This document shows, piece after piece, positions 12,001 through 24,000 of a stretch of DNA of 46,896 nucleotides. Location of the stretch: sequence record NZ_CP107261.1; one strand, written 5' to 3'. A program made the position numbers. Position 1 is the first letter of the stretch, and each line of letters begins with the position of its first letter. The stretch is from a plasmid.

Positions 12001-15000
12001 GGAACATGATGAGCACAACAAATTTCAGCCTGGCAGAGATGACCGCCGATGACTTCGAAACTGCCCGCTCGGCAGGCTATTCCTTCCGCCGCGAACTGAC
12101 TCACACCGTCATGGCGGCGCTGAGACTCCCGGATAACTGGGACATTCACGGGGAGTACGGTAGCGAGTTCGGTGGGCTGTTCCCGGTTCAGGTCCGTTTC
12201 GCACCGACCCACGGTCTCTTTCAGATGGTGCTGTGCAGTCCGGGGGAGGCCAGTGACCAGTGGCTCCTGTTGATGGTGTCAGGAAAGGGCCATCACGTGG
12301 TATGCGTTCGCCAGTGCGACTCTTTCGACGTGTCAGAACTGAATCACGCCCTGAGTGTGGCAGATGTACGCCACCGTGAGGGCTATATCCCTTCCGACAT
12401 CATCGCCTTCCTGAAGCATGAGGTGAAATTATGATCCCGCGTCATCTCTCACTCGTCACGCAGCGGCCCGAGCGTGAAGCGGCTCTACGCGCCATCATGA
12501 TCGTGGAAGAGGAGACGGAAAATTCTGGTCGTCGTTCCAGGCAGCCGTATCCCTATGCTCGTGCATTTTTCCGGATTCTGACCGGCAGCAGTAAGTTAAG
12601 TACCCGATCAATCAATCAGGTGCCGGGGGTCTACTGGCTGAAAGAGGACAAGACCCCCCTGGTACGCTATGAGGAAGCGTTTGATACCCTGATCCGCTCG
12701 CGGGGTCGCCACTGCTATGCGCCGCTAGATACGCGACTGGTGCAAATCATGTTTCCTGAGAAGGCATTCAGCCTGAGCGATCGCCGGGTAAAGCGGGACA
12801 GGCGGGAAGCGGACCTGTACACCCGTCAGGAAACTCGCCGCGCGCGCGAGAAAGAGGATGCATACCAGAATCTGGTCGGCCAGGCTGAAATCGATCTGGC
12901 ATTCCAGACACCGGAAACGCTCCGGGCGTGGTATGAATCGTGGTCGCAGCAGGAGGTGCGTGACTATGACATGCAGCGGATGCTGTGGACATGGACAGAA
13001 CGCTGTCCGTCGCTCTCTCATCTGGTAAGAAGCTGGTACGAACGGGCGTATGAAATCGTTGCGGACGTTCGGGATGTGGCTGAGAACGCGTCACCGGCGG
13101 CGAAAGAGCTGGAACGTTGGATGGTACCGAATAAAATCACGCTGAGGTCGGTATGGCCATAAGAAACAATCCGCGTAAAGCCGAGCTGAAGGCAGCGCGC
13201 AGACAGCGCAGACAGCTGCAGTGCATGCTGGAAAATCTGCAAAAAATGTCCAGCGAGTGGGAACGACTGAGCGGCTGGCTGGAGACGGAAAGCGGGCGGC
13301 TTGCTGAGGGCATTGATCAGCATCTGAAGGCACTGGATGAGCAGATCGAGGAGTGGTCAAACGGAACCGCTGGCGAGGAATGATGCCGAAAAAAGGTGAA
13401 GGTTTATCCGGATTTCAGGCTGGTATTCCTGGGCAGAACATCGTCAGAAGGATATAATGGCGTTGGCGCTTGAGGCTTTTTGCCTCATGACGTTATGGGT
13501 TTGTTATGGTTGTTGTGAGGCAGAAAGAAGAAAGCCCCGAAGGTAATTTTTCAATTAACCAACGAGGCATCCTGATGCTAGACACATCCAGAATAGCCTC
13601 TTACCGCGCTCTGCGCAAGGAGAAGAAGGCTATGAAACTGCCGCGAAGTACCGTTGTCTGGTGCGTGCTGATAGTGTGTCTCACACTGCTGGCGTTCACT
13701 TACCTGACCCGGAAATCGCTCTGCGAAATCCGGCTGAAGGACGGAAATCGGGAGGTCGCTGCCGTGCTAGCCTACGAATCCGGTAAGTAGCAACCTGTGA
13801 GGCGGGGGAAACCCCGCCTTTTCAGGGCTTCTGGTGTCGTTTAGTGAGACCACAAGCGCCTTTTATGAAGGGGTTGCCGGTTCGCCGGTAGCCCCTTTTT
13901 TCTTACGGTCGCGACCGCTCGCATGAACAAACCGCAAGGAAAGTTCCCCGTCGGGGAACGGGGCAGGGCGGCTGCGCCTCCGGCGCGCCCGCTCACTTCC
14001 TCCCCCGTAATACAAAGGCATTACAGGCTGCTGTTTAAATAAAACGTGATGAACCGGTAGCGTTCAGCTGAATTTATCGTCCCGGGTGGTTGCAAGTTGC
14101 TCGATGGCAAACAGTATGCCGGTGTGCGAAACATCGGTTTCAACCATAAAGTTCCAGTGAAGCCTTTTCAGCTGATAAACAAGCTGATCACGATGCGTTT
14201 CCGCGCCGTTACTGGCCAGCATAAGACAGCACTGGCCGATGATCCGGCAGGCTTCATCATAAAGGGGTCCGCTTGGAAAACGGAAAATATCCTACGCTAA
14301 GCCTATTTTTCGTACAGATTACTTCATGGGTCTATGGTGATAGCTAAAAAATCACCAATACTACCTCACGAGTATGTTGATAGCTCATCGTACCCCGTAT
14401 CAAGTTTGCATATACCAAGGAAGCGGAGACGAAAGACCACCTATTACTGAGGGATCCCCAGTAATGGGAGGGTAAAATGAAAGGTATAGTGCTACCAATT
14501 ACTCACCGTCAGTCACGTATCGCTGGATTAACTACGGCATTCGCAGCGAGATAAGTATTCCCCATGTTAAGCCAATAGCAATATAATTATCCATTTTAAT
14601 TTCGGGCTAGCACCAGTGAATTTTTTTGTTTTTACGAAAACTTTCAGTAAAAAGAAAATATCACTAAGGCTATATACACCTTTTATTAAATCTTTATATG
14701 CTATTTCTCTAACAAATAACCGCCTGATTTTTTCTTTGTCCCTCACCTTTTTTCTATATAAACCTAGAAAGTGTCTAGCCTCATACAGGGCATGCCTAAA
14801 CAGCGATACGCTCAAATCATTATTTTTTATCGACTTTGCGTGACCGATGGTTTTAGATATTACATCAATATAGCATTCTGCTCGGACGTCGAAATAATCA
14901 CCGCGATTTGTGATGGATTCATTATTGTACTTGTAGGTGTAGTCCATATCTTTTGATATGTAGAAACGCCCATTTGCCAACGCCAATTCCATCGTCCATA

Positions 15001-21000: not shown

Positions 21001-24000
21001 TATGCAGCCGCGCTTGCCGAACTGGTGAATGCACAAAAAAAGTGCCCACTGGCAGCATCATGGGGGGACGGTACAACGTCATCCTCCGACGGCCAGAATT
21101 TTCGAGTCGGAAGTCATGGCCGCTATGCCGGACAGGTGAATTTAAAGTACGGTCAGGAACCCGGCGTGCAGGTTTATACACATATATCAGACCAATACAG
21201 CCCATTTTATACCAAAGTGATCAGCCGGGTCAGGGACTCTACCCATGTGCTGGATGGGTTGCTCTATCACGAAAGCGACCTGGAAATTACGGAGCATTAC
21301 ACCGATACAGCGGGTTTCACTGAACATGTTTTTGCGCTAATGCATCTACTTGGGTTTGCATTTGCACCAAGGATCCGGGATCTCCATGACAAACGGCTAT
21401 TCATTCATGGAAAGGCGGAAAAATATTCTGGGCTTCAGTCGATCATATCCACGACCAGTCTGAATCTCAAAGAAATTGAGACACACTGGAATGAGGTACT
21501 GCGCCTGGCGACCTCGATCAAGCAGGGCACGGTAACCGCCTCGCTGATGTTAAAAAAGTTGGCCAGCTACCCCAAACAAAACGGCCTGGCAAAAGCGTTA
21601 CGGGAAATTGGCCGTATCGAGCGAACGTTGTTTATGCTGGACTGGTTTCGCGATCCGGCCCTGCGTCGTCGTGTGCAAGCCGGTTTAAATAAGGGTGAAG
21701 CCCGCAATGCGCTTGCGCGGGCCGTTTTTATGCACCGGTTGGGTGAAATAAGAGACAGGGGGCTGGAAAATCAAAGCTATCGCGCCAGTGGGCTGACGCT
21801 GTTGACTGCGGCGATCACGTTGTGGAACACGGTGTATATAGAAAGGGCCATCGAATCACTAAAACGAAAGGGGCTCCAGATTAATGAGCCGTTGGTTTCT
21901 CACCTGTCCCCTCTGGGCTGGGAGCATATCAACCTGAGCGGAGATTACATCTGGCGTAATAATCTTAAGCTGGGATCCGGTAAATATCGACCGTTACGCA
22001 CAGTTGATGTCAGTCTGTACAAAAAACAGGCTTAGCGTAGGATATTTTCCGTTTTCCAAGCGGACCCCATCGAGGAGAATTTCTCTTCATGCTGCATCAC
22101 AAGCTCTTCCTGTCTATGGATTCGGTTTGAAAGGTATGCCAGTGACGATGGCAGCTGGTCCAGCGTTTTGCCCAGAATTGGATAATCAGAGGGGAGACTT
22201 AAAAGTCGTAGAAACGCTTGATTAACCGCAACATATTGCAGGCTACCGTTCTTGATAGTCATCGGTTCACTGCTATTAGTAATCAGATTCAAAATTTGCG
22301 GGGCGAGTTTGATTTTTTTTTTAATGTGACGCGTTGTGAGATCATCTAAGGTAAGCCGTATGTATATGAATCATAGATATATATTCTATTATTTGGCATA
22401 CTATACCATGTGAGATGATAGTTAACTGGGTTTGATCTGCGATCATAATATTCGTTAATGATGCTTTTAAGTGTCTGATTGTGTGCTAGGATAAAAAAAT
22501 TCGTAAGTGCTATCTGTGAATCAGGAGGAGTTATGGCACATCCGATACATTGCACGAAAGTCGCTGGTATCACGGAGTTCAAAAGGGATCCGTTAGGGAC
22601 TGTCGAGTCAGCAGAGGGTGATGCGATTGCAATTCTGAACCGTAGCGCGCCGGCGTTTTATCTTGTGCCACTGGAGCTCTTCGAGAGTCTGAAGCGTGAC
22701 GCTGAAGCTCATCGTTCACAAAAAGCAGGGTGATCCTACAAGGGATCCTAAATTGATCCTTTTTGGCTGTAGTGGTAGAGTCGGCAAACTTATTGTTATA
22801 GATGAATTTATGAGGTTGTCACGCCCGATAAGGTGACAGGTCTGGCAGGTTGAATAGCTGAGTCCAGAAAAGCAAAAACCCCGATAATCTTAGATACTTG
22901 GCGGCATCGCTAGATTAACGGGGTTCCTAACTAAATCATACAGAAGTTGTTGCTTCTGTGTGGGAGTATAACTCGTGCGCGAAAAAAGACAAGACTTTCC
23001 GTGCCTGCTCCTTCTGTGCAACATAAGCGCAGGAAGGCGTGACTGAGGCTCAAACACCTTTATCCCATTATCGGCAGGTTAAAAATCCTACACCGGTATT
23101 CACACCCCAGGAAGGCGAGAGTACATCCCTCTTCTGTCTAAAGCTAATGGCTAAAGCCGACGGTTTTTCGTTCGGTTTCGACTTTGCCGTATATGTAGCA
23201 TTTGCCTGTGCAGCCGGTAAACGGCGGCGTCTGCCACCTGTTTTGCGCCGGCGGGCGATTGATGCTTTGTTGCAGGGGATGCTTTTCTACTATGACCCAG
23301 TAACAAATAGCGTCCGGCGTTCTGTTTTTGACCTGGCTAAAGATTGTGGCTTAACCACAATCTCACCGAATGGTTCAGTTAGTGCAGGCAAAGCGACTAA
23401 GGCGCTAAAATTTCTTGATGAAATTCTGGGCTTCATTGTCTACACGCCCGGAAGTTATCCGTCTGTCTCGTTTACCCCCGTACTGTTTGAGGCTTTTAAT
23501 TTATTCCCTCAGACTTTAGCGGAGGCCAGACTTGCGGGCGAAGGAGCAGGTTGTATCCAGGGGGAATGTCCATGAGTAAAGGACATAATCCCGGGCAACA
23601 CTGGAGTGAGTTAGACCATCAGGAACAGATTCGGTTCTGGCAAAATTTTGATGACGGCAAAGAGTCATCGTTTCTGGTCATGCCGGAAAAGAAACGTACC
23701 CGGCGGCGCCGTGGTGAACATTCCACCAAACCCAAATGTGAAAATCCGGTCTGGTATCGCCCGGCGCACTACAAAGCGCTCGGGGGACAAATCGGCTATG
23801 CCTACAATCGTCTCGTCAGGAAAGATCCGACGACGGGGCATAGTGTTCTTCGTATGCGAATGTCCCTTCACCCTTTCTATGTCCGCGAACGGCAACGTGC
23901 CGGGCGCAAGTATGCATTTCGTCCAGAGAAGCAGCGTCTGCTGGATGCTTTGTGGCCGGTTCTGGTCAGTTTCTGCGATGCTGGTAAGCACACCGTCGGA

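What the first reader, a model, noticed from the sequence alone, without database searches (positions are those of the whole stretch)
14264..22068. Intact Tn3-family transposon carrying a glycosyltransferase / tandem-USP / SulP cargo, with no target-site duplication
Perfect 38-bp IRs bound tnpR-tnpA plus three cargo genes. The GT2 gene and the adjacent 260-bp non-coding stretch are AT-rich, unlike the USP-SulP pair, so the cargo was assembled stepwise. The flanks (ATAAA and ATCGA) are not a TSD. This points to acquisition or rearrangement by recombination rather than simple transposition, or to loss of adjacent DNA. A SulP/USP stress module on a resistance plasmid is an unusual cargo whose function is unknown.
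Basis: seen in the sequence. Interest (0 to 1): 0.55.

Follow-up and report, generated by a model that had tools for sequence, protein, structure and literature searches.

The report
Active Tn3-family transposon beside a deletion
This is a real, intact and widespread (apparently unnamed) Tn3-family transposon. It lacks a target-site duplication here because DNA next to its right end, about 53 kb holding the plasmid's whole conjugation machinery, has been deleted, which is a known transposon-mediated process.

Summary
Perfect 38-bp terminal inverted repeats (14264-14301 and 22031-22068) enclose GT2, tandem-USP, SulP/STAS, tnpR and tnpA. The flanks are ATAAA and ATCGA.

The same element, with the same ends, carries perfect 5-bp duplications at six other sites in other plasmids. 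So the boundaries are right and the element moves.

The missing duplication has a concrete cause. The left flank is a DUF2767 gene truncated in the plasmid leading region. The right flank is a truncated PAS-domain gene beside phd-repA. In related plasmids these two points lie about 53 kb apart, in the same orientation, separated by oriT/relaxase, IncI-type tra genes and pil genes. The window closes on itself as a 46.9-kb circle that has none of these genes.

Public contigs of the same lineage (at least 99.97% identical) include both unoccupied target sites. Several contigs share the window's exact left junction, but the right ends fall at five nested endpoints within 3.75 kb, plus two other junctions. 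This fits repeated deletions anchored at the right end, most likely by intramolecular replicative transposition.

Comparison with relatives supports stepwise cargo assembly. The cargo is not unusual: USP-SulP pairs occur on about 1.4% of PLSDB plasmids. The SulP protein is 59% identical to SLC26Dg, a fumarate transporter. This is ordinary biology that is well documented here.

The parts
14064..14263 (-). Left flank: 3' part of a DUF2767 gene, missing its first 43 bp. This is the original insertion target, ending in ATAAA.
   Evidence: Same-lineage contigs L108-L111 are 99.97-100% identical up to 14263 and then continue ATAAA|GAACACTTTCATTG through an intact 80-aa DUF2767 gene. Alignment to pG426-FII agrees.
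14264..14301 (+). IRL, the 38-bp terminal inverted repeat (GGGG...CTAAG).
   Evidence: The same end borders 5-bp duplications in other plasmids.
14302..14566 (.). AT-rich non-coding spacer between IRL and the GT gene.
   Evidence: GC 0.44. The Hafnia relative L020 has MFS, SMR and an IS110 fragment inserted in this region.
14567..15619 (-). Family-2 glycosyltransferase. It is variable, dispensable cargo. RefSeq records annotate the equivalent CDS as 331 aa, which corresponds to 14567-15562.
   Evidence: PF00535, E 1e-27. GC 0.38. Frameshifted in the 96% lineage, truncated in L072 and absent from L022.
15623..16450 (-). Tandem universal stress protein. The C-terminal domain has the G-2x-G-9x-G-S ATP-binding motif.
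   Evidence: PF00582 twice. Best PDB match is TTHA0350. Sequence.
16469..17947 (-). SulP/SLC26 transporter with a STAS domain, predicted to be an H+-coupled dicarboxylate (fumarate-type) carrier.
   Evidence: PF00916 and PF01740. 59% identical over 488 aligned positions to PDB 5DA0 SLC26Dg, E 7e-179. SLC26Dg transports fumarate in proteoliposomes.
17948..18372 (.). Divergent control region: a promoter-like site for the cargo operon (18241-18214, - strand) and a putative res site just upstream of tnpR (about 18240-18372).
   Evidence: Promoter scan. Short repeats and a palindrome containing TGTCA-like motifs. The res assignment is inferred from position only.
18373..18996 (+). tnpR, a serine resolvase of 207 aa.
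   Evidence: PF00239. 47% identical to the resolvase of the neighbouring Tn3-family element and 30% to a Tn21-type TnpR.
19051..22035 (+). tnpA, a Tn3-family DDE transposase of 994 aa.
   Evidence: PF01526 and PF13700. NF033527 at 1204 bits. 56% identical to a Tn21-type TnpA and 30% to Tn3 TnpA.
22031..22068 (-). IRR, the 38-bp terminal inverted repeat. This is the end that anchors the deletions.
22069..22292 (-). Right flank: the first 224 bp of a PAS-domain gene. Its 3' 469 bp and everything beyond are deleted. The junction pentamer is ATCGA.
   Evidence: The flank is 100% identical to same-lineage contig L125 from position 9031 onward, and the gene is intact there. Alignments to pE61_003 and p707804-1FII agree.
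22533..24594 (+). Retained replication region (phd-like antitoxin and IncFII-type repA ORFs). It limits how far rightward deletions can go.
13506..13790 (+). hok-type toxin locus about 470 bp left of IRL. It may explain why no leftward deletions are seen (inference).
   Evidence: PF01848. The left junction is unchanged in L100-L107.

Best explanation
The 7,805-bp element is an intact, replicative Tn3-family transposon with Tn21-like ends and the order cargo-res-tnpR-tnpA. TnpA acts on the 38-bp repeats and makes 5-bp duplications. TnpR resolves cointegrates at a res site upstream of tnpR.

In this plasmid lineage the element first inserted into a DUF2767 gene of the leading region, at ATAAA. 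Its right end (IRR) then attacked sites further along the same plasmid one or more times. This is intramolecular replicative transposition by the 'cis' pathway. Each event excises the DNA between IRR and the new target as a circle that is lost, and replaces the right-hand copy of the duplication with a new pentamer.

The window carries the largest deletion of a nested series. Relative to intact relatives about 53 kb is missing: the rest of the leading region, oriT and relaxase, the IncI-type tra genes, the type IV pilus genes and most of a PAS gene. What remains is a 46.9-kb non-conjugative mcr-9 plasmid.

The cargo is a three-gene operon read leftward from the res-proximal region. It encodes an SLC26Dg-like H+/dicarboxylate transporter, a tandem USP that probably regulates it, and a dispensable GT2 that was added separately.

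Shown: the element's anatomy, its mobility elsewhere, both empty sites, the missing 53 kb, the circular closure and the nested endpoints. Inferred: that transposition chemistry rather than recombination made the deletions, that the events were sequential, the res site, and the cargo function.
For: - Perfect terminal repeats, and complete TnpA and TnpR.
- Identical ends flanked by duplications at six other sites: TAAAA, TACTC, ATCTT, TTGAT, TAATA, TGGTA.
- The two other Tn3-family elements in the same window keep their duplications: CTGTA at 26728-30796 and GTGTT at 31124-37445.
- In PLSDB the two flanks are never adjacent. They map 52-53 kb apart, in the same orientation, in pE61_003 and p707804-1FII.
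- In p707804-1FII the interval holds mobC, mobA, a relaxase, trbA, excA, traY to traF and the pil genes.
- The window's end and start join colinearly on p707804-1FII and inside contigs L104 and L105. The window is therefore circular, and no relaxase or T4SS gene was found in it.
- Both empty sites exist in the same lineage: DUF2767 intact in L108-L111 and PAS intact in L125-L133.
- Eight contigs share the exact left junction. The right ends map at 100% identity and in one orientation to L125 positions 5283, 6593, 7022, 8836 and 9031 (the window).
- Contig L101 is 49,434 bp, close to the window plus the extra 2.4 kb it retains.
- There is precedent for sequential deletions next to a Tn3-family element that remove the duplication in natural plasmids (PMC5142620).
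Against: - No contig with the simple-insertion intermediate (IRR followed by ATAAAGAACAC) was found, so the first step is inferred.
- The window's own right junction (ATCGA at PAS) was not seen in a second, independent contig.
- The product of intramolecular transposition is identical to that of recombination between two directly repeated copies, so sequence alone cannot separate them.
- Tn3-family transposition immunity should disfavour attacks on the transposon's own replicon.
- The left junctions of L124 and L128 were outside the fetched DNA.
- Two further right junctions (L102, L104/L105, next to pcoE) do not fit a simple deletion in this backbone.
Confidence: 0.8

Rival explanations
1. 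A second copy of the transposon inserted in direct orientation in the PAS gene (and, in sister plasmids, at the other endpoints). Recombination between the two copies then deleted the interval, either TnpR-mediated at res or RecA-dependent. Each surviving copy keeps one flank from each insertion.
For: It gives exactly the observed product: no duplication, both flanking genes cut at the IR ends, and the interval lost. Resolvase acts efficiently on directly repeated res sites in one molecule (established knowledge of Tn3-family resolution).
Against: It needs two steps for each of at least five endpoints. It also needs repeated insertion into a replicon that already carries the element, against immunity. 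No contig with two copies, and no insertion with its own duplication at any of these endpoints, was found.
Confidence: 0.15
2. Recombination between different plasmids through transposon copies sitting at different sites. One parent had the element in DUF2767 and another had it in PAS. This produced a hybrid small plasmid rather than an internal deletion.
For: The element is present on many co-resident plasmid types. Junctions L102 and L104/L105 abut a pco/cus region that is not part of this backbone segment.
Against: The flanks of the window, L100, L101, L124 and L128 are all 100% identical to one backbone and co-oriented. The shared regions differ by only 1-6 SNPs in 10-20 kb. That fits one lineage rather than hybrids.
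Confidence: 0.04
3. Artefact or decay. Either the assembly joined two loci wrongly across a repeated 7.8-kb element, or an original duplication decayed by point mutation (ATAAA and ATCGA share 3 of 5 bases).
For: The window's exact right junction was not seen again in the public collection. The pentamers agree at 3 of 5 positions.
Against: The flanks belong to genes about 53 kb apart in relatives, and both genes are cut exactly at the IR ends, so mutation of a duplication is excluded. Several independent contigs cross the whole element from the same left junction into nested right junctions. Contig sizes fit small circular plasmids, and the window closes as a circle.
Confidence: 0.01

Closest known systems
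[quoted passage not shown]
   Same: 38-bp repeats with a GGGG start, a shared ...AAAACGGAAAATA... stretch and a CGCTAAG end. The order is cargo-res-tnpR-tnpA with tnpR and tnpA co-directional, and the tnpA stop codon lies inside IRR. Duplications are 5 bp. In most other copies the repeats are hit by IS4321/IS5075 after IR position 21 (PMC5034289).
   Different: TnpA is only 56% and TnpR only 30% identical to a Tn21-type module. There is no mer operon or integron. The cargo is GT2-USP-SulP.
The 'unnamed transposon of Leclercia sp. LSNIH1' and its non-autonomous MFS-SulP-USP relative (PMC12757443)
   Same: The element on the Leclercia sp. LSNIH1 plasmid pKPC-79f0 (CP026169) is 100% identical to the window's element. 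The paper describes these repeats as belonging to a widespread Tn3-family group and reports a SulP-USP cargo between such repeats, flanked by 5-bp direct repeats.
   Different: That paper does not describe the window's plasmid, the missing duplication or the deletions. Its own element lacks tnpA and tnpR.
Sequential deletions adjacent to a Tn3-family element in clinical plasmids (Tn1331delta::IS26; He et al. 2016, PMC5142620)
   Same: Deletions abut one transposon end, remove one copy of the duplication, occur stepwise and are attributed to the cis pathway of intramolecular replicative transposition.
   Different: Here a different transposon is involved. About 53 kb including the whole transfer system is lost, and at least five nested endpoints are visible in public data.
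SLC26Dg (PDB 5DA0), the fumarate transporter of Deinococcus geothermalis
   Same: 59% identity over the whole length, including the STAS domain. Fumarate transport was shown in proteoliposomes (PMC6497670).
   Different: The substrate of the plasmid protein has not been tested. It is co-transcribed with a tandem USP and carried on a transposon.

Membership tests
Tn3 family of replicative transposons | Terminal inverted repeats of about 38 bp (GGGG...TAAG type) | tested here: met
   38/38 perfect repeats, GGGGTCCGC...CGCTAAG.
Tn3 family of replicative transposons | Large DDE transposase (about 1000 aa) of the Tn3 type | tested here: met
   994 aa. PF01526 E 1e-150, PF13700, and NF033527 at 1204 bits against a cut-off of 500.
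Tn3 family of replicative transposons | 5-bp target-site duplication on insertion | tested here: met
   Not present in this copy. The same element with the same ends has perfect 5-bp duplications at six independent sites.
Tn3 family of replicative transposons | Cointegrate resolution module (site-specific recombinase plus res) | tested here: inconclusive
   A serine resolvase is present (PF00239). The res site is only inferred from its position and short repeats.
Tn3 family of replicative transposons | Replicative transposition through a cointegrate, and transposition immunity | not testable with these tools
   This needs mating-out and immunity assays.
Tn21 subgroup | res-tnpR-tnpA co-directional, with cargo upstream of res | tested here: met
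   Gene order and strands.
Tn21 subgroup | Repeats recognised by IS4321/IS5075 | tested here: met
   In six other copies examined, IS4321 or IS5075 sits at one or both IRs, and the element's sequence resumes at IR position 22. The targeting rule is as cited in PMC5034289. No IS4321 is present in the window.
Tn21 subgroup | Close relationship of TnpA and TnpR to Tn21/Tn1696 | tested here: inconclusive
   TnpA 56% and TnpR 30% identity. It is closer (74%) to the neighbouring CDF-carrying element. No phylogeny was made.
SLC26/SulP transporters, SLC26Dg-like fumarate carriers | Sulfate_transp core plus a C-terminal STAS domain, with high identity to SLC26Dg | tested here: met
   PF00916 and PF01740. 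59% identity to 5DA0 over 488 aligned positions.
SLC26/SulP transporters, SLC26Dg-like fumarate carriers | H+-coupled fumarate transport | not testable with these tools
   This needs uptake assays.

The most novel reading that the evidence does not exclude
This transposon may be unusually prone to intramolecular attacks from its IRR end, with weak or absent self-immunity. If so, it acts as a one-directional eraser. Repeated small and large deletions strip conjugation modules from a roughly 100-kb plasmid and leave compact, non-mobilisable mcr-9 plasmids. The hok toxin locus 470 bp from IRL would block deletions in the other direction, and phd-repA would set the stopping point on the right.
Probability: 0.3. 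Interest if true: 0.5.

Novelty: new member of a known kind. Interest (0 to 1): 0.3.

Why it matters
The finding explains a structural oddity by a known mechanism, so it does not change what is known about transposons. It has practical value in three ways.
- An mcr-9 plasmid lineage has lost its entire transfer system through its own transposon. This matters for predicting whether the plasmid can spread.
- It gives a natural series of at least five nested, transposon-anchored deletions. The series could be used to study intramolecular transposition and immunity in the Tn3 family.
- It flags a very common but uncharacterised plasmid cargo (USP-SulP) and offers a testable substrate prediction, fumarate or another C4-dicarboxylate.

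Tried and rejected
- **Empty site in PLSDB.** A query made by joining the two flanks found no plasmid where they are adjacent. The lineage is not in PLSDB; the best backbone identity is 86-94%.
- **A published name.** Searches with the IR sequence, plasmid names and gene names found none. The only mention calls the element 'unnamed'. Several 'sulP' hits were only matches to 'sulph...'.
- **Ancestral junctions in metagenomes.** A scan for ATMRA+IRL, meant to catch the window's or the ancestral junction, returned only two unrelated relatives at about 80% identity.
- **Exact-protein look-ups of junction ORFs.** The chimeric PAS'-IR ORF is not on record. The predicted ancestral DUF2767'-IR ORF could not be looked up.
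- **Structured RNA.** Rfam found nothing in the element.
- **Variable outer 21 bp of the repeats.** I first thought hits covering only 22..7784 meant the outer repeat sequence varies. They are IS4321/IS5075 insertions into the repeats.
- **IS4321 in the window.** I suspected the ORF at 25583-26596 was IS4321. It is a DUF6685 gene, and the window has no IS4321.
- **Decayed duplication and inversion.** Synteny excludes a decayed duplication. Circular closure excludes an inversion.
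Full report
**1. Observation**

The sequence shows GGGGTCCGCTTGGAAAACGGAAAATATCCTACGCTAAG at 14264-14301. Its exact reverse complement lies at 22031-22068. Similarity between the two ends continues to 55 nt at 96%. None of 100 dinucleotide-preserving shuffles gave any match. The five bases outside the ends are ATAAA and ATCGA.

Between the ends lie five genes:
- a GT2 glycosyltransferase, 14567-15619 (-)
- a tandem USP, 15623-16450 (-)
- a SulP/STAS transporter, 16469-17947 (-)
- a serine resolvase, 18373-18996 (+)
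- a 994-aa Tn3-type transposase, 19051-22035 (+), whose stop codon lies inside IRR

GC content is 0.38 for GT and 0.44 for the IRL-GT spacer. It is 0.52 for USP, 0.55 for SulP and 0.47-0.50 for tnpR and tnpA.

**2. The element is a real, mobile and widespread unit**

Megablast against PLSDB found 52 plasmids holding at least 80% of the element. At least 10 are 100% identical over all 7,805 bp. They span IncN, IncX3 and IncF plasmids of Leclercia, Enterobacter, Klebsiella and Escherichia.

I extracted the ends from 14 other copies. With exactly the same ends, six independent insertion sites carry perfect 5-bp duplications:
- TAAAA (LS999207 and CP099317)
- TACTC (pKPC-79f0)
- ATCTT (inside a mer operon; CP014073 and OW969660)
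- TTGAT (IncX3)
- TAATA (IncN)
- TGGTA (the 96% variant, CP019987)

Two other copies lack a duplication, as the window does.

Most listed hits cover only positions 22..7784. In the copies I examined, IS4321 or IS5075 is inserted into one or both repeats after position 21. This is the known targeting of Tn21-type repeats by these IS1111-family elements (PMC5034289). The window copy has both repeats intact, and the window holds no IS4321.

TnpA is 56% identical to a Tn21-type transposase and 30% identical to Tn3 TnpA. It is 74% identical to the transposase of the second Tn3-family element in the window.

I found no published name. [quoted passage not shown] **3. Why there is no duplication**

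The left flank is plasmid leading region: ParB-like, psiB, psiA, hok, and then a DUF2767 gene on the minus strand that has lost its first 43 bp. The right flank is the first 224 bp of a PAS-domain gene, followed by phd and an IncFII-type repA.

A query made by joining the two flanks found no PLSDB plasmid where they are adjacent. In the nearest backbones the two points lie 52-53 kb apart in the same orientation. These backbones are Leclercia adecarboxylata pE61_003 and p707804-1FII, at about 94% identity.

In p707804-1FII that interval holds the following:
- the rest of the leading region
- mobC, mobA and a MOBP relaxase
- trbA, excA and traY to traF (an IncI-type transfer system)
- the pil type IV pilus operon
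- NusG-like and sigma-like regulators

None of this is in the window. The remaining ORFs are umuDC, parM, ardA, repA, DUF6685, two other transposons, a qseBC-like pair, wbuC, mcr-9, IS1, an integrase and parA.

The window's last 1.5 kb and first 1.5 kb align without a gap across the join to p707804-1FII. Two independent contigs, L104 and L105, read straight from window 43957-46896 into window 1-5379. The window is therefore a closed 46.9-kb circle, and the interval is deleted rather than moved.

As an internal control, the two other Tn3-family elements in the same plasmid keep their duplications: CTGTA at 26728-30796 and GTGTT at 31124-37445.

**4. The same lineage in public data: empty sites and a deletion series**

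Exact-protein look-ups recovered contigs at least 99.97% identical to the window.

- The intact DUF2767 gene (P0001) lies on contigs L108-L111. These match the window up to 14263 and then continue ATAAA|GAACACTTTCATTG. This is the unoccupied left target.
- The lineage-specific 178-aa RepA fragment lies on contigs L125-L133 that carry an intact PAS gene and, in L125, the pil genes. This is the unoccupied right target.
- The PsiA look-up returned eight places, L100-L107. All have the identical left junction ...TTCATCATAAA|GGGGTCC.

The right ends differ. Mapped on L125 at 100% identity and in one orientation, IRR is joined to these positions:

| Contig | L125 position | Pentamer | Location |
|---|---|---|---|
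| L100 | 5283 | AACAG | inside a tcpQ-like gene |
| L101 | 6593 | ATCAA | hypothetical gene |
| L124 | 7022 | AGTTA | just 3' of the NusG-like gene |
| L128 | 8836 | GTGAA | PAS gene |
| window | 9031 | ATCGA | PAS gene |

L102 (GTATT) and L104/L105 (TAATA) abut a pcoE/cusS region. In L103 the tnpA gene is cut at window position 19189. In L107, DNA carrying an IS26-type transposase gene replaces the element after window position 18438.

Contig L101 is 49,434 bp. That is what the window plus its extra 2.4 kb would give, allowing for a small assembly overlap.

Five endpoints fall in the last 3.75 kb of a roughly 53-kb interval. This argues for one large deletion followed by small further ones, or for strong selection to lose the whole transfer region while keeping repA. 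That is an inference.

**5. Mechanism**

A fixed end, a variable neighbour and the loss of one copy of the duplication are what the cis pathway of intramolecular replicative transposition predicts. The segment between the transposon and the new target is released as a circle carrying the second copy, and it is lost. He et al. (PMC5142620) describe this pathway. They also describe sequential deletions next to another Tn3-family element that remove its duplication in hospital plasmids.

Recombination between two directly repeated copies gives the same product and cannot be excluded from sequence. It needs more steps per endpoint, and I found no two-copy intermediate.

The hok locus 470 bp from IRL may explain why only the IRR side changes. 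This is an untested inference.

**6. Cargo**

Relatives found with TnpA in genome contigs carry near-identical repeats (0-3 mismatches) and TnpA at 86-89% identity, with many different cargoes.

In Kluyvera cryocrescens (L033), Pantoea (L022) and Pseudomonas lundensis (L028), homology to the window covers only two blocks. One is 15647-18102, which is USP, SulP and 155 bp upstream, at about 75% nucleotide identity. The other is tnpA, at about 79%. The GT gene with its spacer (14302-15646) and the res-tnpR block (18103-19044) are not shared. Those relatives use a different, divergently oriented 194-197-aa resolvase.

Other variation is consistent with this:
- The Hafnia element (L020) has MFS, SMR and an IS110 fragment between IRL and GT.
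- The Kluyvera ascorbata copy has a truncated GT.
- The 96% lineage has a 1-bp deletion that frameshifts GT.

So USP-SulP is the conserved core, and GT is a separately acquired, dispensable addition. The module boundary coincides with the GC shift.

The pair is common. USP-SulP alleles occur on 1018 of 72,556 PLSDB plasmids, 479 of them with at least 80% coverage.

The SulP protein is 59% identical over 488 aligned positions to SLC26Dg (PDB 5DA0). SLC26Dg transports fumarate in proteoliposomes (PMC6497670). The C-terminal USP domain has the ATP-binding motif. My best guess is an H+-coupled C4-dicarboxylate carrier regulated by the USP, at about 40% confidence. The GT2 keeps its DxD-type motifs in this lineage, but its role is unknown. 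Rfam found no structured RNA.

**7. Verdict**

The missing duplication is explained by deletion of about 53 kb from the right end of the transposon, which removed the plasmid's conjugation system. The element belongs to a known family and the mechanism is known. The nested series in public data and the common, untested USP-SulP cargo are the only points of modest interest.

Noticed in passing
window 38721-42901: An mcr-9-family phosphoethanolamine transferase gene (41246-42901, -) with wbuC (40693-41169) and a qseC/qseB-like sensor-regulator pair. The regulator ORF appears N-terminally truncated. An IS1 fragment lies at 43253-43756. The deletion derivative is therefore a colistin-resistance-gene plasmid.
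   Followed up: partly
window 26728-30796 and 31124-37445: Two further Tn3-family elements, both with perfect 5-bp duplications. One has Tn21-like repeats and a truncated tnpA (CTGTA). The other carries a CDF cation-efflux gene, a cytochrome b-like gene and a resolvase (GTGTT). Its TnpA is 74% identical to that of the focal element.
   Followed up: partly
window 23039-24594: The repA region is split. A 178-aa ORF matches only the N-terminal 161 residues of IncFII RepA. An overlapping ORF of about 340 aa in another frame matches a full RepA model. The same arrangement is present in all same-lineage contigs, so it is not a sequencing error in this window.
   Followed up: no
window 5176-5449, 6328-6605, 7539-7765: Three dispersed copies (91-96% identical) of a 230-275-bp repeat in the leading region, seen as secondary BLAST hits. 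They may be leading-region single-strand promoter or ssi-type elements.
   Followed up: no
window 14097-14300 (+) and 22032-22292 (-): Both junction ORFs read from flanking DNA into the inverted repeat and end with the same peptide, GSAWKTENILR. This is a by-product of the identical ends.
   Followed up: yes
L015/L016 (CP019987, CP067564), equivalent to window 14829 and 16264-17763: A second lineage of the transposon, about 96% identical. Its GT gene is frameshifted by a 1-bp deletion. Its sulP region is much more diverged (86-94%) than the rest (97-99.6%), which suggests allelic replacement by recombination.
   Followed up: partly
L006-L008, L013, L014 (other plasmids): Most other copies of the element carry IS4321 or IS5075 in one or both repeats after position 21, which should immobilise them. 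The window copy is one of the minority with intact ends.
   Followed up: yes
L102, L104/L105 right of IRR: In sister contigs with the same left junction, IRR abuts a pcoE/cusS copper-resistance region at two different points. This does not fit a simple deletion within this backbone and may reflect fusion with other DNA.
   Followed up: partly
L100 versus L125, about 5586-5658 in L125: A segment of about 73 bp in the tcpQ-like gene aligns twice between the two contigs. This suggests a copy-number difference in a short tandem repeat.
   Followed up: no
L001 (LS999207) 14603-19203: In an Enterobacter IncF plasmid the same transposon sits next to a CBASS anti-phage operon: a cGAS/DncV-like nucleotidyltransferase, a phospholipase effector, and E2/UBC and JAB proteins.
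   Followed up: no
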